In this document: positions 10,366 through 63,716 of the stretch, piece after piece
Layout of the letters: every line of letters starts with the position of its first letter
Position numbering within the stretch: the first letter of the stretch is position 1
Source: Lingula anatina
Lineage: Eukaryota; Animalia; Brachiopoda
Assembly (NCBI GenBank): GCA_051362555.1
Contig: CM120641.1
Span: forward strand, 32,370,401-32,434,400
Reading direction: 5' to 3'
DNA: 64,000 bases
The notes under the pieces: model-generated
What the model saw: the letters and a program-made list of their open reading frames with translations, nothing else
Told to the model about the DNA's origin: nothing
Databases searched by the model: none
Translations under genes and position numbers: made by a program

Positions 10366-10405
<40 letters not shown>

Positions 10406-10490
10406 ACGCATATGTGCCATACAATTGCTTGCATAAATTTAATATTTGATCTTTTTATTGATTTAAGATGGTTTGTTTCTACTGGAGATG

Positions 10491-10539
<49 letters not shown>

Positions 10540-13401: not shown

Positions 13402-13432
<31 letters not shown>

Positions 13433-35300: not shown

Positions 35301-38300
35301 AAAATGTAAACGAGACAGCACTGTTCTGAAATGTTCTTTTTTTCCATTTTTAACAATTTTTAACATAAAACAAAATTAACAGTTTTCTGCTGTTTTTATA
35401 TGATCAACTAAGAAAATTGATGAGATGGGAAAAATATCAACAGAGCAGTGTTAAATGTCCAATCTCTTCCATTCTGAGATTCTGAACATAGTGAATGATT
35501 GAATCTGACAAACTGCAATGATATGAGTTTATTTCCATTTTTGAAACTTTATTACACAATACACGATAACAAGTTTACCATCATTTTTACATAATCAACT
35601 AATAATGTTGTAAAATTGCAGGAAATGCCAAACAAACACTTTTACGTATCTTATTAGTTCAATAATGAAACTGTTTACATGCCTAAGAATTAAATCTGAG
35701 GAAATGTGAAAAAACTGCATTTCTTTAAAATAATGGCCCGATTATGCTGATTTTTTAACTCAACCTGCGTTTTAGCAGGAATGACCACTCCTGTGAGTTT
35801 AATGACAATTGGCCCATCTGTTTTTCTTATATTGTGTTTACAGTGTTGCATATATGCTGAAAAGTGAAAAAAAAAGCATAACTACTAAAATAGTGGCCCG
35901 ATCATGCCGATTTTTGAACTTGACCTGCGTTATAGTAAGATCGATTACTCCTGTGAGTTTCATGACAAAAAGCTTATCGGTTTTCCTTGAAATGTGTTTA
36001 CAGTGTTGCATATATGCTGAAAAGTGAAAAAACAGCATAACTTCTACATTAATGGCCCGATCATGCTGATTTTCGAACTTGACCTGCATTTTATGAATAT
36101 TCATCAGCTCTGTAAATATACAGCCAAAAAGTAAAACTGCCTTCCACTTATCGTGTTTACAATGAAAGTGCATGGCGCCGGCGACAGCGACAGTGACAGC
36201 AACGACGGCGACGACAGACGCAGGTGATGGCAATATGTACAGACACATCTGTACATATTAACTGTACTGTTTGAGAACAGTAAGTGACATAGTTTTTCTT
36301 AAATGGTCATCATGGGAGCAGTGCCCAAAATAGGTTTTTTTCAAATTTCGATGCAATATTACATAATGTTTAACAGCATAATGATCATCAATTTTTAATA
36401 ATAAAATATTAGTATCATGGACAAATAGTAAACTTGACTAACAAAGGTTTTTAGGCCGATGGAACTTCAAAGTCACGCCTTAAAGATGCCAAAATGTAAA
36501 CAAGACTGCACTGTTCTGAAATGGGTTTATTTCCATTTTTAACACTTTTTTAACATAAAACAAAATTAATAGGTTACTGCCATTTTTATAAGATCAACTA
36601 AGAAAATTGATGAGATGTGAAAAATATCAATAGAACAGTGTTTAATGTCCAATTTCTTCCATTCTGAGATTCTGAACATAGTGAATGATTGAATCTGACA
36701 AACTGCAATGATATGAGTTTATTTCCATTTTTGACACTTTATTACACAATACACGATAACAAGTTTACCATCATTTTTACATAATCAACTAACAATGTTG
36801 TAAAGATGCAGGAAATGTCAAACAAACACTTTTATGTATCTTATTACTTAAATAATAAGGCTATTAACATGCCTAAGAATTAAATCTGAGGAAATCTGAA
36901 GAAATGTGAAAAAACAGCATAACTTCTAAAATAATGCCCCGATTATGCTGATTTTCGAACTCAACCTGCGTTTTAGTAAGACTGACCATTCCTGTGAGTT
37001 TAATGACAATTGGGCTTTCTGTTTTTCTTATATTGTGTTTACAGTGTTGCATATATGCTGAACAATGAAAAAACCGCATTACTACTAAAATAGTGGCCCG
37101 ATCATGCTGATTTTCGAACTTGACCTGCGTTTTAGTAAGATTGATTACTCCTGTGAGTTTCATGACAACAGGCCTAACGGTTTTCCTTAGAATGTGTTTA
37201 CAAGGTTGCATATATGCTGAAAAGTGAAAAAACAGCATAACTTCTACAATAATGGCCCGATCATGCTGATTTTCGAACTTGACCTGCGTTTTATGAATAT
37301 TCATCAGCTCTGTAAATATAAAGCCAAAAAGTAAAACTGCCTTCCACTTATCGTGTTTACAAGGAAAGTGCACGGCGACGGCATCGGCATCGGCATCGCC
37401 ATCGGCATCGGCATCGGCATCGGCGACGACAGACGCAGGTGATGGCAATATGTACAGACACATCTGTGTCTGTACATAAAAATGCTTGTTAACACAGAAT
37501 ATAAGTACACTAACACAATTAACATACATGTGTATTGTACAAGATAGTAAGATAAAATTTAACAAAAGTATAAAAAATAAACAGATATATAAATAAACAG
37601 TTACAAAATTATAAACAATTAAGAAGCCACCAAAGGCCAATATTTCTTTCTTTGGTTCAAATGATATTAATGAAAAAGTATATGTTTTATCAAAGTTTCG
37701 CTTTTCAAACCAACTCAAAATTGTCAAATTGGTCTTTTTGACTTGAAATCATCTTTTTCAATCCCCACACCTTTAGTACTTGTTATCTAGGGTTCACTAC
37801 TGAAGCTTTTTCCACTGGCTTTACTTCATTTAAAAAGTGTAGCTAACTTTAGTATACTGTAAAATACTATGTATTACATCCAAATTATGTTACTGATTTG
37901 TACTTGACAAATCACTTCAGAGAACAAAATTTGCTAACACATTCAAAGTTAGAATGAATTATATCTCACAGTTTAAATATCCCATGCCCTCCAAAAGGGA
38001 TAACAATATAATCTCTTAAAATATAATCAAGGGCCATTCAGAAAACATTTTACAATGCAATAAACACACTGTGTACGATCTAATATCCACTACATATAGA
38101 AAGGTGGCATAGCTTGATGAAAATTTAGGCACGGGTTCATATGAATGGTCATGTCCAGTAGAAGCTTAATAAGTTAAACAAATAGCAACAATTAAGTATT
38201 TAGAAGTACATTGATTTTTAGGGAAAGTCAATATCACAAAAACTTTGGCTTGGGCATGGGAAAAGGAACATACAACCATTTAACAATTTAAATACCTTAG

Positions 38301-43571: not shown

Positions 43572-43626
43572 ATGAGCAGCAAGCTTAACGTTAAGGCTAC
43601 TAGAAAGGAGAGGCCCAGATCATCTG
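43572..43626 (+). CDS. MYCBPAP: MYCBPAP candidate first exon 1a (MSSKLNVKATRKERPRSS)
   Basis: aaaATG, upstream in-frame TGA, 55 nt, phase-1 donor G|gtttgt; at the shared promoter. Confidence 0.75.
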
Positions 43627-44639
43627 GTTTGTACTCATTATATCCGCTCTGAACATTAATCATGAAAAAAATCTGATTCGTGTAAATTTTTCTTACAACA
43701 CCCAATTGTGTTTCACATTGTCATTGGTTACTGTCATCACCTGTCTCTTTCAATGATACTGTGCCATCGGATTTAGAGCATATATTTTTTATTGATTTGT
43801 CATGGTGCAGGCCTTGCTATTCATTAGCTTCAGTATTTTAATAATAAAACACCACTTCTCGTATGTTTGCATGGAATTACCTCTTGACTGCACAGGAAAC
43901 TCGTTGACATTTCGGTTGGGTGCCAACATTTCAGAGTGATGCGACCTAAATAAAAAAAAAGAGATCAAATATGAATTGTGATAGACTTACTATTTCCATG
44001 AACATGTAAATAAATCATGAACAGTTGATTTACAACAATGGATTATGTTAGTAAATGCAATGGATTGTGTAAAATTATATTTGTGTTTGCCGAGTGTGGT
44101 GTGTGTGTACACTGTAAAATATTACTACATGTACAGGTACACTCAGTCACTGATGGCGAGATGCACAATTTATGCACTATATAGTGGAGCTCTATATAGT
44201 GGAGGAAATTGGGTATTTTAAACTGGTAATTTGACACTTTCAAATGTTATAATTTCTTAAGTCTGCATGTTAATGTGTGTGCACGAATGATTTTTTCTGT
44301 GATAAATGAAAGAGTTGCAGTTGACTGCTCCTTGAAGTGTTGGCAGAATACCAACTTTCCTATCATTTCCTCATTATTTATTGACACCTGCTATTTTTGC
44401 TGGTCAGATGGGCCAAATTGCTGCTTATCATTTCACACACCATCTCCTTATATTGTTATGATGTACAGTATAAATATTTATACAATGCAAACCCTTGTTT
44501 GTAATTATTAATGATCTATTGTGATAGCATTTAGTTTGTTGCTGGATTGATGTCATGATTTTTATGATATTTTGATTTCAATATGGATGTATCAAATAAA
44601 AATTAATATTTAAATATTTTGTGTTTTTTATATTTATTT

Positions 44640-44725
<86 letters not shown>

Positions 44726-47700
44726 TTTAAATGAGGGATTTGCAAAAGGTAATAAATAGATGTTGCAGTTGTGATTTGACAATTTTAAGTCAATTGATTT
44801 GAAAGTTCATCAACATTGACTATTAATAATTATACAGGTACATGTAGATTTTCTCATTATGCACTAAAGGTATGAAATTGATTTTCTGTTTGATGAATAC
44901 GATGTTATGGTTATTATCAAGAATGTACATTGTATTACCATTGGTAATCAGCTTTACTAATACTAAGCCACTCTAATTGATACAGTATTTAAGCAGGTTG
45001 AGTCAATATGTGTTTCCATAACAGTTGGAAATTGTGTATTATGATGATAGTGAATGCCAATACTCACATTTGAAAACAAGATGAGTTCATTGGCTGCAAG
45101 CAGATATGGCAGTAATAGAAAAGTTGCAAGCAGGCTCACAGCTGTCAGAGCAAATAGCAGATTCACAGCCAGCAGAAACAGGAAGTCGTCTGTTGCTTCA
45201 AGTATAAGTGAGTTTTTATACTGAACTTTATATTGTAGGATATTATCCAAAGCTAAATAGAAAAAAAATCTATTCATGTGCAGGAAACCTGCATCTATGC
45301 CAACTTGAAGTTTACTTTTAAAAGTTTGCATTATGTACTCTTGTGAAGTGTGATGGTATGTTCTCCAAGCAGTCTTATAAAGATTCTCACCTTGTTTTGT
45401 TATTCCCACTGTTATTTTGTTCTTCTGTTTTGATGTCACTTATGATGCCCACTTCTCCTCCTCCGGTTTGATGTAATTCTATAATAAAAAATTTAAATTA
45501 AATGCATAAATCCATAAAAATAGTAATGGTGCTTTATGAATGATACAGGTTTTAAACCTCATTCCAGATTTAAAGCCTGTGCACCTCAAAATGCTCAAAA
45601 TGATTTGTTTCAGTCTTTTAGCATTTGTGGTACTATGAAGTAAACTGAAATTTACAGAAAGTATTATGAAGTTTTAGGGAAACAACAAATAGTCATTGGA
45701 AATGGATCTGCTCAATACTTGTGTGAGGTATTATAGGGTTTAGCATGGTTTTGTGGCTTTGTTGCAAGTGGTCAACAGGTATGCATTTGTTTGCAATTGA
45801 CCGCTGTATGACAGTGGGTATTATGGTCAGTTGCCATGAGCTTTCAGTATCTTGTATTTAGATTCTGCAACCTTAAGAATGTGAGGTGCACAGAGATTGA
45901 AACATTATTGACTTATAAGGTGTGTTATGCAATACACTCAATTATTATGTGTAATTTGATATATTTTAAATCTCCTAATAACTTAATTGAGCACTTTTTG
46001 TTTACATAAATGCTCAAAGACAGGGGTTAGGATGTGCTTCATTCCTGAAAGTACTCTTTCATATAAGATTACAATTTTTTAAATATTTAATGTAGTTCAG
46101 CAATTGAGCTGGAGGGACCTTTTTGTGATGGTATGAATATGGCAATTTAGGTGTCAACCAATCATGGTTGAAAGGCATAACTGACATAAGTAGAGACATT
46201 TAGAAGGTATATATATCAAAGGAAGCTTGGAGTGGTAGGGATAGTAATTCAAGTCGGTTCAAGTAACTGTTGAAGACAAGAAAGCCCTTAGAGATGGCTG
46301 TAGCAGTGGACAAGATCATTGACAATGTGTCAGCTTCAGCATTACCAGAAGCTAGTGTGTTAAAAATACCAGTTCAGTATAAGTTAATCCAAACTCTGCC
46401 AGGTGACACAAAGATCAAGTCCAGGTCAAAAGAACTTACGAAAATTGCCAGCAATGAAAAAGTCACTGCACAGGATAGAGTCGAGGAAAACTCACTACAC
46501 CAAACAAAACCACCAGTATTGTCAGAAGAAAATGAGAAGGTGTCATTAAAACGTCTAAAGTTTAAGAATGTGATACCACTGCTTAAGACTGCAGTAAAGT
46601 CTACTGGACCAGAAAGTAAAGGCTCGCCAGTGCTTTTGTCAGAGACAAAAATGCCATCCAAGAAGACACCAAAGGGCAGAAGACTAAAAGATTCTGTTCG
46701 CATGCTTGGTTTGTTAAGTAGGTCTCCAGTTTTGTATTGATTTAAAATTAAGAATTTTTTATACCATAGTAGAAAGTGTGTAGTATGTTGGCTAAAATGC
46801 TTTTGAGTAGGATGCATCCTAAAGATAATGTTAATGATAAGCAAACTGTAAGATATGTGTGTTCCATTAAAACAGATTAAAGGAGCACTGATGCTTGATA
46901 TCTATATTACAAAATTTCATACAATCTTTTCTATATTGATTAAAAGATTAGCGTAAGCTGATTAAATTTCATCTTTTGCTATTAACAAATGTATGCTATA
47001 ACACTTATTTCCAGATTTTCCCTAGAATTATTCAACATATTTTTTAAACATTGCATTCAACTAGAAATTTTATTTTGACATAAATAATTGGCCTTTTTCC
47101 TTTTCTAGTATTTCCCATGAATATCAGGATCATGCTAAAAAGTGTTATGTCGTCTATAGGCTTTTTTTTTAAATATATATATTATTGATTTATCATTTGC
47201 ATTCTTGACATTCAATGAAATAGGTTTAGGTACACAGGTATTGAAGGAATTATACATAAGAAATTATATGAAATGTTTGCTAAGAGTTTTTTTTTTTTCA
47301 GATTGATGTGATTAAAAGCTACAGTATTTAGAAAGTTTTTCAGATTTAAAATGTTTGACTTACCATTTTGTTGACCTGAGTGCTTATCTGAATACTATTT
47401 CACAATAGAAATACTTGAATTGATTTTGAAATTAAATTCAAAGCTCAGCAAGATGTGCTTGCAAATAGTTTACCTCTAAGATTGCGTTTTGTCCATTGTC
47501 ACATGTGTTAGGTTAAATACAAAGTAATAGAGCAGCTCAGCATTGTCTGCCATTTTAGTTCTATTTACTCTGGCAAACAGACATAACTTTGCTTTTTGGG
47601 TGCCTCTTGAATATGACAAAATTGTTAATGAAATTGAAGACTTTTTTTACCAACATGATTATTTAGGCCACAAAACTTTAAGAATTATTTTATGGTTCTT

Positions 47701-50700
47701 AGATTTATTTATGGTCATATGCAAAATGAGGACTGCAGGTGTTGTTACGTGTGTATTTAAAGATTTTTTTGTCCTAAAAAGATTAAAAATGCAATTACAA
47801 AGATGAAAAACTCCCCATTACTTGAACTGTACATCATCATGATTATGATTTGTTCTAAATGCAATTAACAAATGGTATGAATACTTTTGTTTAAATCATA
47901 ATAACTAAACATCTTTACTTAAAGCAAGTGAAATAAAGGGAAAATTGGTAAGTTTAAGGCATAAATATTTAAAATGTATTTTATTTAGGTTTCAAAGTAT
48001 GTAAGTGAAAACATGCAGCTTATATGTAAAACATAAAAACTTATGGCCTAAAATGAAAACCAAATCCTCAAGTGCGATGTATACTTTTTGATTCTTAAGT
48101 GCCTGTTTGTTAATGTAGGTCTCTAAGGATGAACAGCTTTTACTGTTATCAAACTTAAGATATAGTATTAGTTGGAGAAAGTGCAGAAAACATGAACATG
48201 TTGTTTCTGACAACTAGAGAATTTCATATTATGATGAGATGAGGATAAAACATGACAATTTCATTATATGTGTGGACACTTGGAGGACAATAGATGATAC
48301 ATGTTTTAGTAACATGTGACTAGATGTCAAGTGATATGGATTATTTACTAAACATAGGACATTGCAAAATGGAGGGCTAATAACAGGGATAGAAAAAAAA
48401 ATTTTTTGTAAAGAACTAGATATGATAGCTTCAGGGATATTGGTGGAAAGGATGTATATTTAAATTATCAGAAAATGTCTGAGGTGTCGCATCACAAGCG
48501 CAAACGGCATGCCAAGACAGCCAAATCCAGGGATGGTGTCAACAAACGAGCATTAAAGCAGCTGCATAAAACTGTGACCATTGTCACAATAATAAGTAGG
48601 TTCACTTTTTACTACACTGGCAATACAACAGATTTGATGATGTGCTTGATTTAATTGCATGAGGCATTGGATTAGTTTTAAGTATGATGGCTTTGATTTA
48701 AGCACGCGTTCATACTGACTGTACTGGTATTTCTGCATGTGTAAGTCAATCATGGATTCACTTGTACAACTTTGTCACTTTGGGCACATTCCCATAGATT
48801 TTAGATCGATCTATCCCCGTGGGGAGTCTCACTAGATTACTGTCAGATAATCTGGCTTAAATGTCCATCCCGCCTACTACAAGCTGTAAGGGGGTAATTA
48901 ACTTTTGTGCCTGCTCGGCTGACAGCTATTTAGCATGAACCACCAGGGAGCCTTTAAGTTGGATCCATCTAATCTCTGGGAATGGGATCTTTGATGTAAC
49001 TTTCTTACCTTTATGCAATACTTACACATTTCTTTTACCTCTCCTTTTCTTCAGTTTCACCTTGCTTCTTTCATACATCTATTCACTAAGTAGCTGCATG
49101 TTTCCCTAGATTTTAAAAACACAGAATTTGGTGAAATGTTTTCCATCTTTCAGTCAAGTCTGTGTTGGCAGCAGAGAGCAGGCTGTATGCAAGCTCACTT
49201 TCACCAATGAAAACTAACAATTGTCCAACAGTTTCTTATTATTTTGAGCCTTTTGTTACCTTTGTTGACATGCTTGGGATACGGGTGTCCATTGAAAGCC
49301 TTAATTTGAGGAGAAAATAATTCTTTATAGCAGCAGTGAATCATGAAATGGCATTTGTAGACTTAGATGCCATTGGTCACTATGAAAATCAAGCACTGGC
49401 GTTGCAGTCCACCAATATTACACAATCAATACATTCATTCTTTTTTCATCTGAAGAAATTTTAAAGTGGAATAATTTCAAGTGGACAATGATTTTTGTGC
49501 CCCTGCTGTTGAATAATTCCACTAGGGCAATAATGACCAGCATAGAAACAGGGCTGTGGTTGTAAGCTTTGTTGGTACAAACATTTGAACCCTGTAACCT
49601 AAAAATCAGTCACAGTTGGTTGATACAGGAAGGTTTATCAAGCTTCTTTATTTTCGTGTTCATTTATAAATGCAGGAAAAAAACAGTGGTAACAAATTCA
49701 TTGGACATTTAAAGAAAACATGTTTAATGTGGCAACCAGAGCAAAAGCACTTGGATCTGGGAAAAAAGGTACCAAATTTTGGTTAGATACAATGGCAAAA
49801 TATTTTTTGATATGATTTTTAGGTTTGATTTGCTGGATTAACGTTTATCAAGCTCAATCCTTCATGAGGAAAATTAGGATTCTACTGAATGGACATACGT
49901 TTGTTACTAGTTAGTAATTTGTATCACCTAGAAATTAAAGTCACTTTGTTTTAATTTTATATGATATACCCACAACCTTAAGTGATTAAGCCACTCGTAT
50001 ATTATGAACTGTTAGGCAAATGATAAAGTGACATATCTAAAATTATGAATGAATTTTTGATTTTATGAAATAATCACCATCAGCTTTCACAATCATAAAA
50101 CACATAAAACAGCAATAAATTATTTGATCTATCATAAGCCTTTGAAATACATTTATACATGTATGTATAATAACTACATGTATTATTTAAAATGCAGGTT
50201 TAATTATTGAAGTGTGATGTACTGTACCTTTTTCCTGGACTCCTTTCTCTGAACCTTATTTACTAGTAATATGTTTTTTAATCTTCAATCCAAAAAGATG
50301 GTTTCACGGGGCCGTAGCAATAGTCCGAAGGTTCAATAGTCCAAAGGTTCATTGGTCCGAATGTTCACTATAGAACCTTCGGACCAACGAACCCTTGATT
50401 AAAAAATCGATGAAAATGTTACCACTTTTCGGACCAATGAACCTGCGGACCAATGAACCTTCGGACTATCGAGACACCCTCGGTTTCACAGCTCTACTCT
50501 AGATTCTGGCTTAAGTTTGTAATTTATAAGGGGGTAAAGGGTGAATTTTTCATGGCATTCTTGTATTTTTAATAGCAGGAGGCAGGGTTGCACTCCAGTA
50601 ACCACATGCTGTTGTAATGAAAAAAAGATGTTAAGCTCATACATTTCTTTGAACTATTGTTATCTTATTATGTAGAGATAGTATACTTGGGTATGTAATT

Positions 50701-53700
50701 AAATGCCATTGAAAGATGGACACTTTTTTCCTATTAGTAGTAGTAATAAAATAAATAATAATGCAAGGCACACCTGACAGTGATATTTGGGACTACCAGT
50801 GGTCAGTGTTGTAAGGTACCAACACAGTGAACAACCAAAGTGGTGTGCTAGCTAATACATTTTGGGTGATTTTTGTATATTGTCATTGGAAATAAGTAAA
50901 CAGCATTTCTTTTTCCCTCTCCCCCTCCTCCTATCTTGCAAGTCTCTCTTTTGTGGGAACAATGTGTATGGTAAGGTTATCGTAAGCAATTAGTTAGGGC
51001 TACTTCCTAAATTATGTTTAGACAGGTTACCAAGGTAGCCTTTATCAGAGCTTTCTAGCGTATCTGAGGCTGTCACAAGATAAGAAATAAATGGTCCCAT
51101 AACAAAGAAAACTGTTTGATTGTGACATTTTGAAGGATAAGGTACAAGACTTTTGCTGTGTTTTGAGATCACTTCTGAAGCAGCTTTTCTAAAATGGCGC
51201 GATCACCAACGGCATCCTACGATATTTTACATGTCCATGTGAAATCTCCCAGCACCCATTCTAGTTCAAGAGGTTCTTCTCGTAAGTTAAAATCTATTAA
51301 TATTTATTAAAAGCTTGCAAAATTTGAAAATATGTATTTGGCTTAATATGCTGACATGCTAGGTAGTAGAAGACACTTAGCACTTTTTTCCTACTGAAAA
51401 AATTTATCACAAACAGATCTTATTGTTAAAAAATAATATAGGTACATGTATTCACATCATGTAAGGCTACTTTGTAATAGCTACCAATCAATGTGTATGT
51501 ATTAATTGGAATAAATATAGTATCATGCTTTGTCTGTTTTTTAAGGTTGCCAGTATCATAGGACTTGAAATGGGTAGACCTGGTCATCAGATGCTAAATT
51601 AACAACTAAAAGAGATGAGAAATTGATGTTGACCAAAAAGAGTAAAACATTTTATATATAAATTACTTGAGTAAGTCCACCCAAGTGCTTGCAGCACAAA
51701 TGTGTGTGCAAATTAGCTATTGGTTACCAGATGCCGTGTTGAAATGATATCTTAATGAATATGATAATGACTAAATGATTTTTCTCTAATTTTTTAGAAA
51801 GTCACAGCTACATGTTAATATATCAATAGGCTTATGTAGGATTGCAGAAACTGACTCGGGAAAAACTGGATCAAGAAAGCATTGATTTTCAGCTGATAAA
51901 GGTCACAGTGACAGTGTCCACATTTTTTCTTTAATCTCACTGCAATACAAAAATCAGTAGCAGCACACTAAGCAGTAAATGAGACAATACGTATGTACCT
52001 AGTTAGGTGTTATGCACTTCAGAGTATTTACAAAACTATTTAGTTAATGGACAGTGGCTTACATCATGTTGACTATTAGATTCTTAAGTAACCATATTAT
52101 ATGTTGGTTCCAAGCAACTAAGTTTTACAGAGGATTAAATGTCATAGAACTGGACAGGCATTGTTCAGCTGTGACAAGAATTGATTTGATAACAAACTTT
52201 CAACAAAACTGACATTTGAGGACACATTGATCCCACTGCTTACACACAGAATTGCTTCCTTGCATACACAGACTGCCGAATGAAAGGTACCAATTAAAGT
52301 TTAGTATGGAAATTCAGGAGAAATTGGAGAAGAAGTATAATATTTAACAGGGGTGGACAAATAGCCTTGTTGCTGGGATAAAATGTTGAGCACAACTGAA
52401 TGAGAGTGCATGTGGAAAAGAGCTCTTAAACTTACTTTCCCTGTATGACATGATATGGAATCTAGCAATCAGAAAGGCGGAGGCAGTTTTTTGACTGCTA
52501 TGAAAAAGAATAAGGTAACCAGGCAGATAGGGTTGAAGATTCTTGCTGCAGGTATGAAAACTTAGGTTTTATTTTTTTATATTGAAGGTGTATGAGATGA
52601 TGCTCTTTATAATTGGAGAAGTTGTAAAGAATTTTTGAACCCCTGTGTTACTTTTCTATGTAAGGATATTAAGAATTTTTCAAATGAAAGTAACTTAATT
52701 CATTATACTTTTATGTAAATTGAGAATCTATTTTTTCTGCTCTTTGAACAACAGTATCTATCACTTGCCTACTACCAGTTTTTTGTGACTATGCTTGAAT
52801 ACAACTTTGCCTTTGAGACAATAATGAATACTATCCATATAATTATTACCTCTGAAAGGCATTTTACAGGATATATATTTTCTCATATGTTTCCCTTTCT
52901 TGCTATTTTAACATAATTAGCCTGGCAGTTTTCTCAGTTTTTTTTACTTTGGCAATTTTTTTTTCATGAGTGTTAGTTCCTTTATCTGCCTAAAGGTGGC
53001 ACTGCATGCATAAGTATAAATGACATTTGATTGAAAGGAGGATTCTTTTATGGTATCATTGTTTGCCCAATAAATTATAGTTTAGACATAATTTTATTTT
53101 TGATATGTCTCCATAATATTGAGTCTTATTTTATGTTCTTGTAAAATCTGAAGTTATATTTTTGAACAATTCTTATGGAGATAAATTGAACAGTATGAAT
53201 AAGGCTTATATAAACAGTTTTACATAAAATTGCATTCCTCACTTACTGTTTAATCACTATGAAAAACAACTTATTTACTTTTAAACCATGGCCATGCTTT
53301 TTACTTTTTTTATATGAAATACCTCAAGTGTTAACCTCTGTTAACTCCCAAAAAGCAGCACATGTAGACCTAGAACTTGGGTTATTGTATGCCATCTTGG
53401 TGGGAAAAGTTTTAACAAATGTTAGTATTTTAAAGCCATAAAAGGTTGGCAAGTCTTCCAAGTTCCATATATAAAACTCAGGAAATAAATATCATGAAAA
53501 TTACACATAGCTGGGTGTTATTACTTACAAGGCAAAGAATATGGATGATACTTACCTTTAAGCCAACTCTTGCTGCTCAGGTATGTCTGTAAATAATTTT
53601 TATTCAGGCATTATTGAATTTCTGTTTTACACCAGTTGGGTATCTAGGGTTAATTTCCTTATATGGGTTACTTAACTGTTTACCCGTATGCTTTTGAACT

Positions 53701-55741
53701 GTAACAGGCTTAAAAAAGTACCTCACATGTCAATATCTTAAAGAAAGAAACTAAACTAAGTAACAAGATAGCTCTATAAGTTTGTGTAAAATTGCATGGC
53801 TGCCTTTGTTTGGTGAAAGACCAACTACAAAGCGTCATGTATCAATTGCAAGTGAAAGAGTTATTTCTTTCTATTTCCTTTGGTCTGTTGCTCAGTTGAT
53901 TTACATACAAATGGAATTGGATCAGGGGCATTGGGAATCGATGAAGTGCACAAGTAAGAGAAGAAAAACAGACTGTTTTTTTAAACAGACCTGGAGCAAG
54001 CACAAATAAAAGAAATGGTAGAGGACAACAGTTCTGTGTAAGAATAAAGGGCAAAGGTGTCTGGAGTTGCCCTATGGTTAGCCTTACAGACAGATGGTGT
54101 TAGACTCGGCCTATTGAATAGGCCCCCACTTGGATACAGGTTCAGTGTGTGTGACTTGTTCATATTGACCAACCCAGGGGATAGAAACCAAGAAGGAGGG
54201 GAGCGAAACAGCAATATTATCAACATCTTTGTGACAACAACAGACCATAATGGCAACAAATCTGTTGCTAAGGTGTTAATCATTTTTAGAAAGTTATTGG
54301 AAACCGAAAAGCAATTTACTGGTGTTCTTAACATTCATGAGGAAATTTTACAACTGAAACAACCTGCCACCAAAGGGACTACAGACAAGACATTTTGTAA
54401 GAACAAAGTGTAGTAACAACAATGTCTACAACTAAGAAGAAGGCCACTATGCCAGTTGGAGACAAGAAGGGAGGAGATGGAGCATCCGATTCTTCTAAAA
54501 GGCCAAGATCCAAGTCTCCCAGTATGCTGTTTGCCTAGAATATATCATTGTATATCCATGTATTTTTAGTGGAAAATCATTCTAGATCTTTTTGGTGTGG
54601 ACTGGGTATAATTTCTAGTGCACAGTGTACTTCAGTACTATATATACTTATAAGATGGTGTATGATTTGAACAAAATTTTTTAATATCTTAGTTTCACAC
54701 ATCCACAGGCTAGTACAGGGATATGCATGGATTTGAAGTTGTAATATACCAGTAACTGCGTACTTAACTGAGTAACTTAGATTTTCTCCCATTTAGAACC
54801 ACCTGTTCCTTAGTGTCATGGGCAAAAAAAAGTCATGACTTTTGGAATTTTTGTTTATTATTTCTATGGAAACTACAAACTTGTACATCAAAATTTCACC
54901 TCAGTTATACTTTTGATTTAACACAATAAGGTTTAAATGCCAATAGGGATACATTAATATTTCCAGCTGTACAGAACATGTTAGAAAAGTTTTGTGCATG
55001 CTGTTAGAAAAGTTTTGTGACATGCAGTTAGGGAATAATTTGGTCAGCTAAGTAGGGCACTAGATTTACTGGTATATGTATATGTAAGCCTGGTCACCAT
55101 GCCATCTACACTGACACCATGACCAGTGTCCACTTGAACAACAAACTAAACAAATACATGTACCACTTATGTTTGTGGACTTTCTTGATTTGCAGATAAA
55201 ATAATCTTTGCAGACATTTTATTTGTAGGTAAACATTTACCACACAAATGTCAATTATACCATGAAGAAACTCCAGAATTTATTTTACCTGGCTGCTACG
55301 CATAAATGGATGGCTAATTGATCACACAATAGGAAATGCTTTTAGGATACACACCATATGTTGGTTGTTAATATTTTTCTTGATTTCTTACCCTTCAGAC
55401 AAATTGAAGAAACGTAAAGATGGTGGTACGCCAGAGAAAAGTCAGACACCCAATCCTGATGAGGCATCTGAGGATAGTGGACCTGCACAGACCAAGAATG
55501 TCATCACAGGTGCCGATGTCCTCAGTTTGGCTATCAAGGAGGATGACCTCCTCAAAGTCAGTGATCATTTATTCTCCTTAATGATGATATTGTTTTTTTT
55601 TTTTTTTTGAAGTTGTAAATTAAAGCAAATGTTAAACTGTTAGAGACTGTGACTTAATTCACCTTATTCTAATTAAGAGGATTATGAACTAAACCATTAA
55701 GGCCACCAGCAGAGAGTTGACATTTAAGCCATATTGTTTAG

Positions 55742-55778
<37 letters not shown>

Positions 55779-58700
55779 CTTCAAATGGAATGTTTGCTTT
55801 AAAACTATGGGACTGTAAGGTGCTGCCTCCTGGTGCATATCAGTTTTGGCTACAAAATAATTGAAGCCAGGTATTTAACTTCCTAGACTTTTGTAATTCA
55901 TTTCATGCACATTTTTGTGCAGTGGTGTCTTAATATAAAGAGTTATTCCACTGTGGTAAAAAAGAAAATTATTCTTGTGTGTGTGTGTGTGTGTATAGAA
56001 TATTGTTATTTGGTATATCACTCACAACATATCTCTGTAGTTGAGAGAGCCACACCCCCCAGAGACTAAGAAGACTCCTGTTACTCAGCCAGTGGTGGTC
56101 AGGAAAAGAAAACCGCAGTCGGAACTGGATAAACCAACACCGAGAGTGTAAGTTGATCAATTGTCCACTGGCATATCTCACTTTTGTTGTTTGATAACAA
56201 ATCAATAAGTAGTATTTAACACTGATGTGCCCTTTTCCTGTGATGTTTAGTGATATCACAAAACAAGAACAATAAAGACAAAAAAGAAAAGACATATTTT
56301 CACTAGTCCTAATATAACATAACGTACATCTATGTTCTTACAGAGTTACAGTGGCCAGACCTGCTCCACCAAATGCACCCATCAAGCCTGTTGACACCAG
56401 TGAGTTGAATTTGACCATATTTAATACTAAATAAATCTATGATTGTTCTGCTAGATTTATAATGTTTTTATAGTACCTTCAGAAAAGATCATTTCATTGT
56501 ACCACCAGCGTTAGCGCTGGCGGTACACATGGTTTCGGTCCCGTCCGGATCGTTCCGCCGGCTCCGCCGGCTCCGCCGGACGGCTACCGTTACCGCTTCT
56601 CCTCCTAGACGGTAAGGGCCCCCGCACCCATCTCATGGATTTAGGTCACCTATAATCTCAACTCGTTCCACGTAAAATTTGGGCTTTGTCAGTATTGGGG
56701 TCTGGGTGTGGCACTCATTACAATGCACCCTTGTCTAAAAATGGCAAAATTAAATGCTTATTATCTACCCTACGGAAGGAGTTATGGGAAAAATTTCTAT
56801 AGACGGCTTTCCAAAAGTCATATGTGTAGATTTCAAATATACCCTTGGATTTGACCTTTGACCTTTACTTCAAGGTCAAATTGGCCAAAATTTTCAAAAA
56901 AATGAAATTTTTTACGAAAAAATTTTTTTTTGCCCTGTTATTCAGACACTACACAGACTTAACCAACAATATTATTGGAAAGTGTTACCCTTCAGGTCAT
57001 CTTTCATCTCCATGAATTTGGGGTCAATCGGTGCATTTTCACGGGAGTAGCGGCCATAAGATACCGAAACTGAAAACTGTCTCTAATTCGGGAACCGTTA
57101 ATGCTAGAGACCCATTCTTTTTTGCATTTTGTAGAGCATGTAAAGCCCAACACTGAAGGTGGTCTCGTTTTTTTTGTATTCCATACGGTTTTCGAGTTAC
57201 GCTGTATCAAAAAGTACATATTGGTGGTAAAAGCAAAATGTGCAGTACGGTAATGGATAATAAATTTTGAACTCTGGAAAAATAAAACAAAAGGCTTGGC
57301 AAAGCAGACAACTTGTGTTCAAAAATGACATTATTTCATCAAATTTGAACTTCTGAAACTTCAGAGCACCTCCTATTTCAAGAATTTTGACCAAAATGAC
57401 ATTTTCTTTATTTTAATTAATTTTTTCTGTACGAAATTTAAGGCACATTATGGTAACTCCAAAATTATAACATTTAGTCCCTTATATCTCCAAAACTGGC
57501 AGAGATAGGTCCATAGTTACTATTGAAGTTGAATAGGAAGTCATATACTGGCAATCTTACTGTGACCTTGAAATTGACCTTTGACCTACTTTTCACCATG
57601 AACTGAACTTTGCAAATTTTGCTTCCCTTTTATCTCCAAAACTGGCAGAGATAGGTCCATAGTTACTATTGAACTTGAATAGGAAGTCATATACTGGCAA
57701 TATAAATGTGACATTAAAATTGACCTTTGACCTACTTTTCACCATAAACTGAACTTTGCAAATTTTGCTTCCCTTTTATCTCCAAAACTGGCAGAGATAG
57801 GTCCATAGTTACTATTGAACTTGAATAGGAAGTCATATACTGGCAATCTAAATGTGACCTTAAAATTGACCTTTGACCTACTTTTCACCATGAACTGAAG
57901 TTTGCAAATTTTGCTTCCCTTTTATCTCCAAAACTGGCAGAGATAGGTCCATAGTTACTATTGAAGTTGAATAGGAAGTCATATACTGGCAATCTAAATG
58001 TGACCTTGAAATTGACCTTTGACCTACTTTTCACCATGAACTGAACTTTGCAAATTTTGCTTGACTTTTATCTCCAAAGTTACGCTGTATCAAGAAGTAC
58101 ATATTGGTGGTGAAAGCAAAATGTGCAGTACGGTAATGGATAATAAATTTTGAACTCCAGAAAAATAAAACATTAGGCTTGGCAAAGCAGACAAGTTGTG
58201 GTCAAAAATGACATTATTTCATCAAATTTGAACATCTGGAACTTCGGAGCACCTCCCATTTCAAGAATTTTGACCAAAATGACCTTTTCTTTATTTTAAT
58301 TAATTTCTTCTGTAGGAAATTTATGGCACATTATGGTAACTCCAAAATTATAACATTAAGTCCCTTATATTTCCAAAACTGGCAGAGATAGGTCCATAGT
58401 TGCTATTGAACATGAATAGGAAGTCATATACTGGCAATCTAAATGTGACCTTGAAATTGACCTTTGACCTACTTTTCACCATGAACTGAACTTTGCAAAT
58501 TTTGCTTCCCTTTTATCTCCAAAACTGGCAGAGATAGGTCCATAGTTACTATTGAAGTTGAATAGGAAGTCATATACTGGCAATCTTACTGTGACCTTGA
58601 AATTGACCTTTGACCTACTTTTCACCATGAACTGAACTTTGCAAATTTTGGTTCCCTTTTATCTCCAAAGTTACGCTGTATCAAAAAGTACATATTGGTG

Positions 58701-61700
58701 GTGAAAGCAATATGTGCAGTACGGTAATGTATAATAAATTTTGAACTCCGGAAAAATAAAACATAAGGCTTGGCAAAGCAGACAAGTTGTGGTCAAAAAT
58801 GACATTATTTCATCAAATTTGAACATCTGGAACTTCGGAGCACCTCCCATTTCAAGAATTTTGACCAAAATGACCTTTTCTTTATTTTAATTAATTTCTT
58901 CTGTAGGAAATTTATGGCACATTATGGTAACTCCAAAATTATAACATTTAGTCCCTTATTTCTCCAAAACTGGCAGAGATAGGTCCATAGTTACTATTGA
59001 AGTTAAATAGGAAGTCATATACTGGCAATCTTACTGTGACCTTGAAATTGACCTTTGGCCTACTTTTCACCATGAACTGAACTTTGCAAATTTTGCTTCC
59101 CTTTTATCTCCAAAACTGGCAGAGATAGGTCCATAGTTACTATTGAAGTTGAATAGGAAGTCATATATTGGCAATCTCAATGTGACCTTGAAATTGACCT
59201 TTGACCTACTTTTCACCATGAACTGAACTTTGCAAATTTTGCTTCCCTTTTATCTCCAAAACTGGCAGAGATAGGTCCATAGTTTCTATTGAACTTGAAT
59301 ATGAAGTCATATACTGGCAATCTAAATGTGACCTTGAAATTGACCTTTGACCTACTTTTCACCATGAACTGAACTTTGCAAATTTTGCTTCCCTTTTATC
59401 TCCAAAACTGGCAGAGATAGGTCCATAGTTACTATTGAAGTTGAATAGGAAGTCATATACTGGCAATTTACTGTGACCTTGAAATTGACTTTTGACCTAC
59501 CTTACGATGAACTTAACTTTGATTGTACCATTTTTAGGCATATATATTTTTTGCATATTTTGAAAATTTTTGTTGATTGCATTTTTACAGCTTGTCAAGC
59601 AGAAGACTGGTGGCTGTGACCCTTATTTTGTGTATGTGGGGGTCTATACGAATGTGCTTGCTCCAGCTGGTGGTACAATATTCGGAGGCGGTATCGCCTC
59701 TCTGATCCTCTAGTTTTATTTGTATATTCAGCATACATATTTCATTTGCTGTGCTAAATCTTTGTTTGACTTTTCTGTGAATTTGGGCATTTTTCATTGT
59801 AGGTGTCACAGGTCCTAGATTTGATGCAATGGGAAATGTGATTCCACACAGCATTCTTGGAACACTAGAAGACTTCAAGAAAGAGGCAGAGAGGAGGGGA
59901 GAGTCAGTGGTAAGGCTGGATACTTGATTATAAGGGGCTGTAGCGATAGTCCAAAGGGTCATTGGTCCAAAGGCTTGACAGTCCAAATTAATGCATAAAT
60001 AACGTCCAGAGTGTACCGGCAGTAAAGTAAAGTTCATCAGTGCATATGATTTTTTGGACTAATGAACCTTCTGACCAATGAACTTTCAAATGAACCTTCA
60101 GATTATCGAGAAGCCCCCAATTATAAATGCATACAATGAATTCAATGTATTGGCAAAATATTAATTTTTTAGAAATTTCAGCAGCTTTACCTTTATCCTA
60201 AAGATATACCTTACTCAAAACTAGTGAAAGAATTACAATCTGTATAAGTGTTTTTTCAGCTCTAAATTTCTTATCTTTGTGAAATTTGCAGTGTCTATAT
60301 CACCTTTTCTAAAGTGACTCAAAAATTAGAAACTGCACTTCAAAACTGATTTATTGGTCGTAATTCTGTGAATGTTATTGAATGTGGTATACCTTATGGA
60401 AACTGTTGAAACTTTCAGGAAAATTTAATTTTTACTTTAGAAAGTTCTTAGACTCTTCGTGTTTCTTAAACACTAATGCTGTCAAAAACAAATTATCTTT
60501 TGTCAGAAAAATCTTTTCTTGACATTTTATCTACACTTTCATAAGAATTATTCAGCTTGATGTACATGTTGCCTATTTGAACATTTTATCATCTGAAAAA
60601 GAAGACATTTAATTTCAGTACCAAAGTAATTTTATAAAATGGTAGTGAGACAGTTTTACATGTAGTACTAGTATATCATCAATATGCCATCTGTGAAATA
60701 TAGCAATATATCTCCTTTACTATCTCTTTCTTTTTTTTTTTCTTGTTTCAGAGCTTTGAGATCCCAGAGAGATTAAAGGTCCACACACCTACTGTGAAGT
60801 ATGAGAAGAAGAAGAAAGCCAGCTCTCACCCCAGGTACCAGAGTGTGGATGAGACCAATGCACTGGTGAACTGGCAGAAGAAGATGCTGGAGAGGAAGAA
60901 ACAGCAGGGCTATATATCCAGTATGTTTTTAGGAGGCATTTTCCCTCTGTATTTTTGTAAGAATGATCATTTACAATAGGAATTAGTTGTCTAGTATCAA
61001 ACGGATTATGTGTTTTAATGGAAGTAGTAAGCTGAAAGTCTGAAACAATTGTTAATGTTTAAAAACAGTTGAAGATCTTAGATGTACAGGCTGCTACAGT
61101 TATATGGATCTGCAATCATTGAATGTCATCAGCTCCATTATTACATAGACTTACTATATTTATATTTTGTCACTCTTACTTTGTGATCAGAAGTATTTGT
61201 AGTAAGTACTTACCGCATATTGGCTGATTTTCTTTCTCCAGAACTTCTTCAAAAATCAGAAGATACCCTGCTTATGAACCATGGAGACAACTACAGGAAA
61301 AAACAGGAGGAGCGCTACCTGATAGACAGAACAATACCCTCCATGGATTATGGAAAAGGATGTAAGGATGGCAGAATATTTCTCTTGACTTGTTCAGTCA
61401 CTGTTTTTCATCTTATCCTGCAGAAAAATTAGTACCAGTGTTAGATATGAGAATAAATTAGGATTGGATTGTCATAGAATTTTATTTACATTTAGGTATA
61501 ATATATTTTTGAAAACAATATTAAAACCAATCTGTTGGAACATTATACTTCAACAGATTCCGTAGTGATTTCCAAACAAAAATCAAAGGGAAAAAACATG
61601 TTTGATCCATGTTTCCTTCATTTACCCCTATTGTTATTTACTGTAGTCGTGTGATAAGTCATGCTTCTAATCACAGTAATAGCAGCAATTTAGGAGGCGA

Positions 61701-63716
61701 CTGTGTTTGCTGCCAATTGATTCAAAATAATGTGGGCTGAAACATAATTGTACAATGTCATGGAGGCAACACAGATTGATTGCAGTATATTTGTGAAGTG
61801 TTTGTGTGTTCTATGGGGTATGCACTGTGTAGAACAGGCCATGGTGATGTATGTCAATTATACTCCAGTATACTGCGGGCAAACTGTGGCAGCTAAGGTT
61901 TATAGTTTGCATCAGTAATATGATAACCACTTTGCAATGATAGTGATAATTGGTAGTGGCAACCCATTAACTCTCAGAGTGTGATAACGACTTCAGGGAA
62001 TTGATTGTCAGGGGTTGGTAATTGCACCTTTTTACTGGTTTCAGCCTGGTACAGGATAAAATGATGGTAGCAATAAAATATCATCTCTTAGCCATGTATG
62101 TTTTACTGGAAGCTTTATCATTGATTTTCACTTTTTTTTAAGGGAAATTGTGCATGAATGAATTTAAATTGGCTGCTTGCTATTAAACATGATAAAAGCC
62201 TCTTTGCTACATGTCTTTTAAAAATAAATACTCAGCATTATTGATACATATATGATGTCATGTGATTACAATAAGTTTATATTTTCAAATGCAGATCGAG
62301 TTGGAAGTGAATTCTGGAAGCAACAAGAGAGAATTGGCGATGATCTGGAAGGAATGCAGTAAGCACAGTGCAATGATTGTTGTTTATTGAGATGAAAATT
62401 TAATTTAATTTCAAAAAGGCAAACTTTGTGTCTCTAACAGAAGTGTATTATAGAGAAACAAGCAAACAAGTAATAATAATAATAATAATACAATAAGAAC
62501 ATTATTTAGTTTTTTACTTGATTAAAAGGGCAATTATTTTTCTTGTCCACATTAAACATATAAAAAGATACATGAAGAATCATTAAAAAAAAAACACATA
62601 AGTGTTACATTTGATTTAAATCTTTCCAGCATGACTTTGACCCAAACAGAGCGTGGGTACCCACCACCTATTGAACATGTCGGGGTACCAACCATGATTA
62701 AAGAGGAGAAAGGTACAGAATACAGTAGTACAATTATTATTATCGTGTTATAGATTTTTCCTTGTATCTTTTTTAGTGATGGTGAAGAATTAAATCATTT
62801 CTAAAGAGACGATATTGGAATATTTCCTTTCTGATTAATATGATTGTTATTTGAGTGTTTGATAATGACTCTTGAAAGATGTGTAATTGGCTTTACTTGT
62901 GTCTATGTGTGAGTTTGCTGACTACCTCCTGCAGTACATGAATGTCATGTGTTTGTACCACCATGTTGATGAGATTTTTCTAAGTATACCAGCATACCTT
63001 TCAAGAATCAGTGCCGAATGCAAATATCTACCTGCAATGTCAGTACACAAATGTTTTGTCATTATAATTATCTGTGTTAATGATGAACAAAAAAGTTGTA
63101 TTTTTTTTAAACAATGTTCCTTCATCATACTTCTTCCAAACAGGCTATATATAAGTCTAACTCTCATTGTGTGTTTCAAGGTGTGTATTGGAGTAAACCC
63201 AGCACCCCAGTTCACTACCCCTGGGACAGGTCTGCTTTCCTGAAGCAGAGGAAGCAGCAACTACAAACTGTCATGGATGAACTGGACCCCCACAAACCTG
63301 TAAGTTGGAAAAGGCCATTGTGAGAAAATTATATATTATTATTATTATTATTTAAGCCTATGGCAAAATAATTCATGTGATGGAATTAACTTAATTTGAG
63401 TTTATCAAAGATGTTACCTTACAAATTCAGAAAGAAGTCAGACAGAAAGAAGTCAGAAAATATCAACCAAGGGTCTTTCTATACAAGTATTTATATTTCT
63501 TAATGATGTAATTATTAAATATCTTATTATAACCAAGGTTGAGAGGTAAATTTTTTAACTATATTGTCAGTTACTGATTTCTTTGTAGGACATGTCATCA
63601 CTGGCCATCACTGGTTTCAAGCAAGGCCCAAAGCTTGTGGATAAGGAGGACGAAAGAGAGGAGCCAAGGACCATGTCTGAATTTGAAGATTCAGTCTTGG
63701 AAGACCAAGAAAATCT
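43572..63716 (+). CDS. MYCBPAP: MYCBP-associated protein (MYCBPAP/AMAP-1), 3'-partial
   Basis: Constitutive exons in continuous frame: 55399-55556, 56041-56147, 56344-56399, 59803-59909 (GPRFDAMGNVIPHSILGTLEDFK), 60752-60920 (NALVNWQKKMLERKKQQ), 61242-61361 (LLMNHGDNYRKKQEERYLIDR), 62295-62358 (GSEFW), 62630-62711 (MTLTQTERGYPPPIEHVG), 63181-63299 (PWDRSAFLKQRKQQL), 63589-63716. These motifs match what I recall of the MYCBPAP family. The first coding exon is one of several candidates; the most upstream is 43572-43626. Confidence 0.9.
44644..44722. repeat. (TA)n microsatellite
   Basis: Pure dinucleotide run. Confidence 0.9.
45081..45207 (+). CDS. MYCBPAP: MYCBPAP candidate first exon 1b (MSSLAASRYGSNRKVASRLTAVRANSRFTASRNRKSSVASSI)
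   Basis: aagATG (alternative in-frame ATG at 45054), 127 nt, phase-1 donor A|gtgagt. Confidence 0.65.
46294..46708 (+). CDS. MYCBPAP: MYCBPAP candidate first exon 1c (138 aa, Lys/Ser-rich, MAVAVDKII...RRLKDSVRML)
   Basis: gagATGG, 415 nt open, phase-1 donor G|gtttgt; upstream in-frame TAA. Confidence 0.65.
48475..48595 (+). CDS. MYCBPAP: MYCBPAP candidate first exon 1d (MSEVSHHKRKRHAKTAKSRDGVNKRALKQLHKTVTIVTII)
   Basis: aaaATG, 121 nt, phase-1 donor A|gtaggt. Confidence 0.6.
48782..48990. mobile_element. Hairpin MITE, family B copy 2 (within MYCBPAP)
   Basis: Colinear with 25350-25564; terminal IR gggcacattccca / tgggaatgggatc. Confidence 0.75.
49720..49768 (+). CDS. MYCBPAP: MYCBPAP candidate first coding exon 1e (MFNVATRAKALGSGKK)
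   Basis: aacATG, upstream in-frame TAA, 49 nt, phase-1 donor AAG|gtacca; acceptor-like sequence at ~49675 suggests a 5'UTR exon upstream. Confidence 0.5.
50307..50482. mobile_element. Short non-autonomous DNA transposon, family C copy 1, 6-bp TSD
   Basis: GTTTCA duplicated on both sides (50301-50306, 50483-50488); ~16-bp subrepeats (gtccgaaggttca..) in inverted orientation at the two ends. Confidence 0.75.
51194..51281 (+). CDS. MYCBPAP: MYCBPAP candidate first exon 1f (MARSPTASYDILHVHVKSPSTHSSSRGSS)
   Basis: aaaATGG, upstream in-frame TGA, 88 nt, phase-1 donor C|gtaagt; X-box-like GTTACCAAGGTAGC at 51026-51039. Confidence 0.65.
52455..52551 (+). CDS. MYCBPAP: MYCBPAP candidate first exon 1g (MESSNQKGGGSFLTAMKKNKVTRQIGLKILAA)
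   Basis: gatATGG, upstream in-frame TGA, 97 nt, phase-1 donor CAG|gtatga. Confidence 0.62.
54422..54521 (+). CDS. MYCBPAP: MYCBPAP candidate first exon 1h (MSTTKKKATMPVGDKKGGDGASDSSKRPRSKSP)
   Basis: acaATG, upstream in-frame TAA, 100 nt, phase-1 donor A|gtatgc; nearest to the common exon 55399. Confidence 0.7.
56492..59715 (+). mobile_element. Non-autonomous Helentron-like element (HINE), family D, with internal satellite array, in a MYCBPAP intron
   Basis: 14-bp perfect subterminal IR attgtaccaccagc (56496-56509) / gctggtggtacaat (59666-59679); 5' internal IR gctggcggtaca; GC-rich (ccgccggct)n microsatellite; 3' stem-loop gaggcg-gtat-cgcctc (59685-59700); CTAG|TT end (59710-59715). Confidence 0.85.
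57196..59520. repeat. Composite tandem array inside the HINE: 146-bp unit A and ~299-bp unit B arranged B-A4-B-A2-B-A4 (last A partial)
   Basis: A units start at 57485, 57631, 57777, 57923; 58368, 58514; 58959, 59105, 59251, 59397. B blocks start (gttacgctgtatc) at 57196, 58079, 58670. Confidence 0.9.
59933..60119. mobile_element. Short non-autonomous DNA transposon, family C copy 2
   Basis: Termini similar to 50307-50482 (ggggctgtagcgatagtcc... / ...tatcgagaagcccc); ATTATA duplicated on both sides. Confidence 0.65.

What the first reader, a model, noticed from the sequence alone, without database searches (positions are those of the whole stretch)
43572..55556. Tandem array of at least eight alternative ATG-bearing first exons feeding one MYCBPAP body
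Seen: between the promoter and the first conserved exon (phase-1 acceptor at 55399) lie eight unrelated coding-like islands at 43572-43626, 45081-45207, 46294-46708, 48475-48595, 49720-49768, 51194-51281, 52455-52551 and 54422-54521, spaced ~1-2 kb apart. Each starts at an ATG with a purine at -3 and ends in a GT donor at length 3n+1. Seven have an in-frame stop shortly upstream (1d was not traced), and none has a convincing phase-1 pyrimidine-rich acceptor, so they cannot simply be chained as internal exons. Each splices in frame to exon 55399 (junction residue D, N or H). Established: variable-first-exon/constant-region layouts are known for clustered protocadherins, UGT1A and plectin, and MYCBPAP is a motile-cilium/sperm-flagellum protein. 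I know of no such array described for MYCBPAP. Inference: promoter choice swaps 16-138-aa basic, low-complexity N-termini onto one axonemal protein, possibly specific to cilium type or spermatogenic stage. Unlike protocadherin cassettes, these exons are not paralogous, which suggests independent de novo origin. Caveat: I searched for phase-1 donors by eye, so there is selection bias.
Basis: partly seen in the sequence, partly recalled or inferred. Interest (0 to 1): 0.88.

Follow-up and report, generated by a model that had tools for sequence, protein, structure and literature searches.

The report
Swappable tails on a ciliary scaffold
In a lamp shell (brachiopod), a scaffold protein from the core of beating cilia has at least five alternative short front ends spliced onto one constant body, a layout also seen in gene models of molluscs, ribbon worms, acorn worms and sea urchins, which likely lets different cilia or sperm tails respond to different signals such as cAMP or calcium.

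Summary
Real, and wider than reported. The gene is Lingula anatina MYCBPAP, a scaffold of the ciliary C2a projection. Five of 8 islands have transcript-level support for joining exon 55399: 1a, 1d, 1e and 1g in RefSeq isoform models, 1h in raw reads (9 reads, 3 of 8 runs). 1c (donor better placed at 46717) and 1b have homology support only; 1f has none. The ATG..GT pattern alone is barely above chance (18 vs 13 on the minus strand). All 17 invertebrate bilaterian species sets checked show 2-7 alternative N-termini at the homologous junction; coral and amphioxus show only the 1a type. So 'independent de novo origin' is wrong for 1a and doubtful for 1b, 1c and 1d. Non-1a tails carry RRxS/T motifs (36 vs 4 shuffled) or a calmodulin-type 1-5-8-14 pattern, completed by the constant exon in 1c and 1d; 1a-type tails carry neither. 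Likely a plectin-like swap of regulatory tails between cilium types. Separate promoters, tissue use and binding are not shown. Not found in print or in earlier scan notes.

The parts
43572..43626 (+). Exon 1a coding part (18 aa); ancestral N-terminus of animal MYCBPAP
   Evidence: RefSeq X5 starts here; z 12-15 to mollusc/nemertean tails; same type in Acropora, Trichoplax and sponge proteins
45081..45207 (+). Candidate exon 1b (42 aa), ends in a basic-serine motif next to the junction
   Evidence: No transcript support; coding score -7.9; matches mollusc RRxS-class core, shuffle p 0.001, class chosen after the fact
46294..46717 (+).
   Evidence: No transcript support; longer-protein search found nothing; coding score +18 to +22; junction-anchored match to two gastropod exons z 6.1 with 46717 vs 1.2 with 46708
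48475..48595 (+). Exon 1d (40 aa), ends in a calmodulin-type 1-5-8-14 pattern completed by the constant exon
   Evidence: RefSeq X1, X2, X4, X6; anchored z 4.7 to gastropod class; motif
49720..49768 (+). Exon 1e coding part (16 aa); possible acceptor at 49676, so it may be an internal exon behind a leader
   Evidence: RefSeq X7; acceptor score 9.0
51194..51281 (+). Candidate 1f (29 aa), unsupported
   Evidence: Pattern only; coding score -0.5; no RefSeq form, no reads, only low-complexity or short matches
52455..52551 (+). Exon 1g (32 aa)
   Evidence: RefSeq X3; weak match to an annelid tail, z 4.0 among 136 compared
53930..54521 (+). Exon 1h: transcribed leader (start approximate, set by depth bin) plus coding part 54422-54521 (33 aa)
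   Evidence: Joint 54521->55399 in X7, X9, X5; depth over 53930-54665 in X4, X5, X7, X8, X9 and none in X1-X3; not among the RefSeq forms read
55399..55556 (+). First constant exon (phase-1 acceptor)
   Evidence: all 9 listed read differences at 8 places are synonymous third-position changes
56041..63716 (+). Further constant exons: 56041-56147, 56344-56399, 59803-59909, 60752-60920, 61242-61361, 62295-62358, 62630-62712, 63181-63299, 63589-63716; the gene runs off the window
   Evidence: Translation matches RefSeq X5 (last end corrected by one base); Pfam PF14646

Best explanation
Lingula MYCBPAP joins at least five alternative ATG-bearing 5' exons to one constant exon at 55399, and these likely work as interchangeable regulatory tails on a scaffold of the ciliary central pair, probably chosen by cell type through separate promoters. 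Shown: the joins (four in RefSeq models, one in reads), the shared phase-1 junction across bilaterian gene models, the ancestral 1a tail, motif classes among the other tails, and sample-dependent use of 1h. Inferred: the tail hangs as a disordered, basic extension from the C2a stalk. 1a is the default with no motif. The RRxS-rich class (molluscs, ambulacrarians, probably Lingula 1b) would add PKA sites. The 1c/1d class would add a Ca2+-calmodulin site, made partly from the constant exon in Lingula and gastropods. Feeding, larval, sensory and sperm axonemes would thus get the same stalk with different cAMP or Ca2+ inputs.
For: Four N-termini in 7 Lingula RefSeq proteins. Reads for 1h in 3 of 8 runs, with leader depth in 5 of 5 runs of studies P2/P3 and 0 of 3 of P1 although the body exon is covered there. 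67 distinct N-termini in 17 invertebrate bilaterian species sets, 2-7 each; junction residue D/N/H/Y in 85 of 97 N-termini over 25 sets, as a phase-1 join predicts. Tail classes shared between bivalves and gastropods, and between acorn worm and sea urchin. RRxS/T: 36 in 49 non-1a tails vs 4.0 +/- 1.9 shuffled (0 of 2000 reach it), 0 in 18 1a-type tails, 6 vs 5.1 in whole bodies. Basic 1-5-8-14 pattern in 5 of 49 vs 0.7 shuffled, 0 of 18 1a-type; 1c (46717) and 1d in the same register as Patella and Gigantopelta. Residues 1-70 at pLDDT <50. MYCBPAP/FAP147 is the C2a stalk (PMC13345628; 10.1101/2022.01.23.477438; passages read).
Against: No transcription start data; only 1h shows a long unspliced leader. 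1e has a good acceptor, and Mercenaria and Mya have 1a-plus-cassette forms, so some variable exons are not first exons. Lingula's eight islands contain no strict RRxS/T, only RKSS in 1b and KKAT in 1h; 1e, 1g and 1h fit no clear class. The five 1-5-8-14 hits are one homologous class and the pattern was chosen after seeing them; the model shows no helix there. RefSeq isoforms are predicted models whose read support I could not see, and I have no baseline for how many N-termini other genes show in these annotations. Two of the three P1 runs were laid at the stricter 93% likeness, depth is low, tissues are unknown, and the animals differ from the window by several percent. 1b, 1c and 1f have no transcript support.
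Confidence: 0.6

Rival explanations
1. The array is real, but the tails mainly set where and when the protein is made or delivered (tissue-specific promoters and leaders, ciliary import or tubulin-tail binding by basic charge). The motifs are by-products of basic, serine-rich disorder.
For: 43 of 49 non-1a tails are net positive. Tails of 2-3 aa exist in Mercenaria, Mya, Mytilus and Tubulanus. 1e, 1g and 1h fit no clear class. The 1h leader region 53900-54421 holds 7 upstream ATGs. Plectin tails work by targeting (PMC3695321, passages).
Against: RRxS/T is nine-fold above composition-matched shuffles and absent from the equally basic 1a tails. The hydrophobic register is kept between brachiopod and gastropods.
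Confidence: 0.25
2. One or two promoters with mutually exclusive internal exons rather than alternative first exons.
For: 1e acceptor score 9.0. 1a-plus-cassette isoforms in Mercenaria (2) and Mya (1). One Haliotis and one Lineus protein each carry four accessions, compatible with several non-coding leaders.
Against: Best acceptors within 300 nt of the other seven ATGs score 1.9-6.4 vs 9.6-14.5 for true ones. Reads cover about 490 nt upstream of the 1h donor with no listed joint into it.
Confidence: 0.1
3. Neutral promoter noise: a long first intron spawns weak cryptic first exons that annotation pipelines record as isoforms.
For: Chance candidates are common (13 on the minus strand). Several donors are weak. 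1f and maybe others may be such noise. No annotation baseline was obtained.
Against: The same junction and recurring tail classes appear across phyla. The 1h donor is used in two diverged sets of animals. Amphioxus and coral gene models show only the 1a type.
Confidence: 0.05

Closest known systems
Plectin variable first exons (PMC3695321, passages read)
   Same: Many short alternative first coding exons, each spliced separately to a common exon 2, giving different N-terminal heads on one large scaffold.
   Different: Here the body is an axonemal central-pair protein, the layout spans protostomes and deuterostomes, some pieces are cassettes after 1a, and isoform-specific localisation is not shown.
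Clustered protocadherins, UGT1A, chelicerate sDscam (search listing and abstract starts only)
   Same: Tandem variable 5' exons upstream of constant exons.
   Different: Those variable exons are large paralogous domains (recalled). Here they are 16-141 aa disordered tails with no pairwise similarity above z 1.9 in Lingula, though 1c and 1d share a terminal register and one sea-urchin pair is paralogous (z 15.8).
MYCBPAP / FAP147, stalk of the C2a projection (Pfam PF14646; PDB 9ijj_v, 7n61_0I)
   Same: Pfam E 1e-134; mouse chain E 1e-134, aligned from the junction onward.
   Different: The eLife C2a paper has 0 occurrences of 'isoform' in its main text. The mouse chain has only about 10 residues ahead of the aligned part.
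1-5-8-14 Ca2+-calmodulin-binding motif; PKA consensus RRxS/T (residue sets recalled; an example of the former read in PMC6684243)
   Same: Pattern matches in two tail classes.
   Different: Binding and phosphorylation untested; in Lingula and gastropods position 14 comes from the constant exon.

Membership tests
MYCBPAP/FAP147 | PF14646 domain above cut-off | tested here: met
   450 bits vs cut-off 24.5; single exons also hit
Variable-first-exon genes, plectin type | Several ATG-bearing 5' exons each spliced directly to one constant exon | tested here: met
   Four in RefSeq models, one in reads
Variable-first-exon genes, plectin type | Each variable exon has its own promoter | tested here: inconclusive
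   Long unjoined leader for 1h; good acceptor before 1e; no cap data
Variable-first-exon genes, plectin type | Tissue-specific use of the exons | tested here: inconclusive
   1h depth in 5 of 5 P2/P3 runs, 0 of 3 P1 runs; tissues unknown, depth low
Variable-first-exon genes, plectin type | Tails set isoform-specific localisation or partners | not testable with these tools
   Needs experiments
Protocadherin/UGT1A-type clusters | Variable exons are paralogous duplicates encoding a folded domain | tested here: not met
   No Lingula pair above z 1.9; tail predicted disordered; no Pfam hit in 1c
Protocadherin/UGT1A-type clusters | Shared promoter element / CTCF-directed choice | not tested
   One search found no repeat family tied to the exon starts, but no motif search was run
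1-5-8-14 calmodulin targets | Hydrophobic 1-5-8-14 spacing in a basic stretch | tested here: met
   1d, 1c (donor 46717) and four mollusc tails; also an internal match in 1b
1-5-8-14 calmodulin targets | Ca2+-dependent calmodulin binding | not testable with these tools
PKA substrates | RRxS/T sites above chance | tested here: inconclusive
   Met across species (36 vs 4.0) but 0 strict sites in the Lingula islands

The most novel reading that the evidence does not exclude
Bilaterians evolved a cassette switch on the central-pair stalk MYCBPAP: each ciliated cell type picks one of several ancient tails, wiring the same C2a arm to cAMP/PKA, to Ca2+/calmodulin or to neither. This would be a genetic route to cilium-type-specific control of beating kept for over 500 million years, with a calmodulin site that in some lineages is assembled only by splicing.
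Probability: 0.35. Interest if true: 0.8.

Novelty: new member of a known kind. Interest (0 to 1): 0.6.

Why it matters
How one conserved axoneme gives cilia that respond differently to calcium and cAMP (feeding cilia, larval bands, sperm) is an open question. A conserved set of swappable tails on the C2a stalk gives a concrete handle that can be tested in sea urchins, mussels and oysters, which are standard cilia models: isoform-specific in situ, peptide binding and tail swaps. The isoforms already sit unremarked in automatic annotations. My searches found no paper describing them: MYCBPAP + 'alternative first exon' 0 papers; 'MYCBP-associated protein' + isoforms + N-terminal 4, off topic by listing; Lingula + 'alternative promoters' + cilia 1, off topic; 30 of 116 MYCBPAP papers listed, none on isoforms by title or abstract start. 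Most subscription papers are not searched.

Tried and rejected
No whole genome was held. The run search listed no RNA holder; the 9 runs came by species label and 8 were laid. The search for longer proteins carrying 1c found none among 665 candidates, which is weak evidence. Pfam found nothing in 1b, 1c, 1f, 1g or 1h and only a sub-threshold DUF3918 hit in 1d. The ATG-less 121-codon frame upstream of 1h (54048-54410) has no Pfam hit and 5 of 7 listed read differences change the residue, so I treat it as leader, not coding. Internal phase-1/phase-1 cassettes in Lingula: only 3 weak candidates just upstream of 55399, rejected. High depth at 48780-48990 and 50307-50480 comes from repeats (both strands, loose ends), not exons. 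Low depth in bin 45098-45465 was not counted for 1b: it lies on the opposite mate direction in stranded run X5 and spills into the next bin. The sequence-only null is inconclusive; the formin region was used for training and is not a clean control, and one training donor was off by a base (fixed). No complex was predicted. Earlier scan notes: none on this array; two on other MYCBPAP features. Supplements of the papers were not read.
Full report
Identity. Body exons hit Pfam MYCBPAP. Exon 60752-60920 is 100% identical to a protein named 'MYCBP-associated protein-like isoform X2 [Lingula anatina]'. Exon 1a plus ten downstream exons translates to the first 389 residues of isoform X5. The closest solved chains are mouse MYCBPAP (9ijj_v) and Chlamydomonas FAP147 (7n61_0I). 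Passages read in PMC13345628 and 10.1101/2022.01.23.477438 place this protein as the stalk of the C2a projection of the central pair, binding CFAP65 through an N-terminal fragment. PMC12297659 (passages) describes the mouse sperm C2a. PMC4901443 (abstract) puts the MYCBP orthologue, an AKAP binder, in the central pair.

The observation. All eight islands have the features claimed. As a sequence pattern they are weak. A scan with a donor matrix trained on 23 other donors of the window finds 18 phase-1 ATG..GT candidates in the 11.9-kb region, 13 on its minus strand and 1 in 8.7 kb of PEMT introns. With a coding score of at least 0 the figures are 12 and 3. 1b and 1f score below 0. The case therefore rests on transcripts and comparison.

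Transcript evidence. Seven of eight members of the Lingula cluster were read. They carry four N-termini, equal to islands 1a, 1d, 1e and 1g, each joined at the 55399 exon. These are predicted RefSeq models; I could not see their read support. Eight RNA runs were laid on 44730-55740, reading 6-30% of each. The only listed GT..AG joint is 54521->55399: 3 reads in X7, 2 in X9 (one start), 4 in X5. So 1h is a fifth form, absent from the RefSeq set read. Depth runs from about 53930 to the donor in X4, X5, X7, X8 and X9, with no listed joint into it, as expected of a first exon with a long leader. X1, X2 and X3 show no depth there although the constant-exon bin has depth 1.5, 5.0 and 3.6. Only X2 of these three was laid at the lax 85% setting. 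The bins over 1c-1g were at or near zero (apart from repeat-edge depth in the 1d bin), so these runs say nothing for or against them. 1a was outside the stretch.

Comparison across animals. Isoform sets came from 22 clusters, some only partly listed (15 of 44 for Mytilus, 15 of 34 for Magallana). Cutting each protein at the homologous point gives 2-7 distinct N-termini in all 17 invertebrate bilaterian sets used, one species per genus: 67 tails in brachiopod, bivalves, gastropods, nemerteans, an acorn worm, echinoderms and tunicates. One Pecten protein lacked the junction and was dropped. The junction residue is D, N, H or Y in 85 of 97 tails over 25 sets, which is what a phase-1 join to an exon starting AC/AT gives; the 12 exceptions are Styela, shark and amphioxus. 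Seven Acropora proteins and seven amphioxus proteins show only the 1a type, and sponge and placozoan representatives start with it too. 1a is therefore likely ancestral and the array likely bilaterian (inference from gene models, no tree built). Turtle and shark models also vary here, less regularly. Two Mercenaria forms and one Mya form are 1a plus an extra piece, so cassettes exist alongside first exons.

Tail classes. Non-1a tails cluster across species: an RRxS class in bivalves and a nemertean, a second one in bivalves and gastropods, one shared by acorn worm and urchin, and a long class in bivalves that ends in a basic hydrophobic stretch. RRxS/T occurs 36 times in 49 non-1a tails (21 tails) against 4.0 in shuffles, never in 18 1a-type tails, and at chance level in the bodies. 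A basic 1-5-8-14 pattern occurs in 5 of 49 against 0.7; these five are one homologous class and the pattern was picked after seeing them. For Lingula, 1d matches the two gastropod members when anchored at the junction (z 4.7), and 1c does so with the donor at 46717 (z 6.1) but not at 46708 (z 1.2); both then end in the same donor context. 1b matches the mollusc RRxS core next to its junction (p 0.001, one of 8 tested). 1e, 1f, 1g and 1h have only weak matches (z up to 4.0 among 136). No Lingula island has a strict RRxS/T. AlphaFold2 on the 1d isoform gives pLDDT under 50 and no helix for residues 1-70, consistent with a disordered tail.

Mechanism. Shown: alternative 5' coding exons on a constant body, a conserved junction, motif classes, and sample-dependent use of one exon. 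Inferred: separate promoters chosen by cell type, tails exposed on the C2a stalk, and PKA or calmodulin input through them. I put the layout at about 0.9 and the regulatory-tail reading at about 0.6. The main rival is that the exons serve expression or targeting only.

Relation to known systems. It works like plectin, where many variable first exons join a common exon 2 and give short heads that set localisation (PMC3695321, passages). It fails the paralogous-domain test of the protocadherin/UGT1A type. My searches found no description for MYCBPAP, and the scan's notes hold none. Verdict: a real, apparently undescribed and widely conserved new member of a known kind; five exons supported, two inferred, one unsupported.

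Noticed in passing
Downstream promoters would free MYCBPAP from this shared promoter.
   Followed up: no
window 53554-53581 and 55392-55425: Two reads in stranded run X5, in the antisense direction, link these places with 11 extra letters; a minus-strand donor-like site lies near 53555. Possible antisense spliced RNA or artefact.
   Followed up: no
window 48042-48409: Sense-direction depth 0.79 in run X3 just upstream of 1d, possibly its leader.
   Followed up: no
window 53911-53953: Extra ATG..GT phase-1 candidate (14 aa, donor score 8.0, pyrimidine at -3) at the start of the 1h leader; a ninth exon or an upstream ORF.
   Followed up: partly
window 55399-55556: Runs X7-X9 differ from the window at 8 places within about 80 bases, all synonymous, more than the other runs; suggests a diverged lineage under the same species label.
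   Followed up: partly
window 48780-48990 and 50307-50482: Short repeats heavily covered by RNA reads from elsewhere in the genome; the second has 55-nt inverted arms, with a relative near 59940-60120.
   Followed up: no
window 56480-59700: A 3-kb insertion with internal tandem repeats in a MYCBPAP intron; similar repeat-rich insertions lie in introns at about 7000-9500 and 34600-37450.
   Followed up: no
window 1-15000: Plus-strand formin gene with a polyproline stretch, DAAM-like by recall.
   Followed up: no
P0022, P0225, P0183, P0170: Clam, mussel and ribbon-worm isoforms with a tail of only 2-3 residues, a near tail-less class.
   Followed up: no
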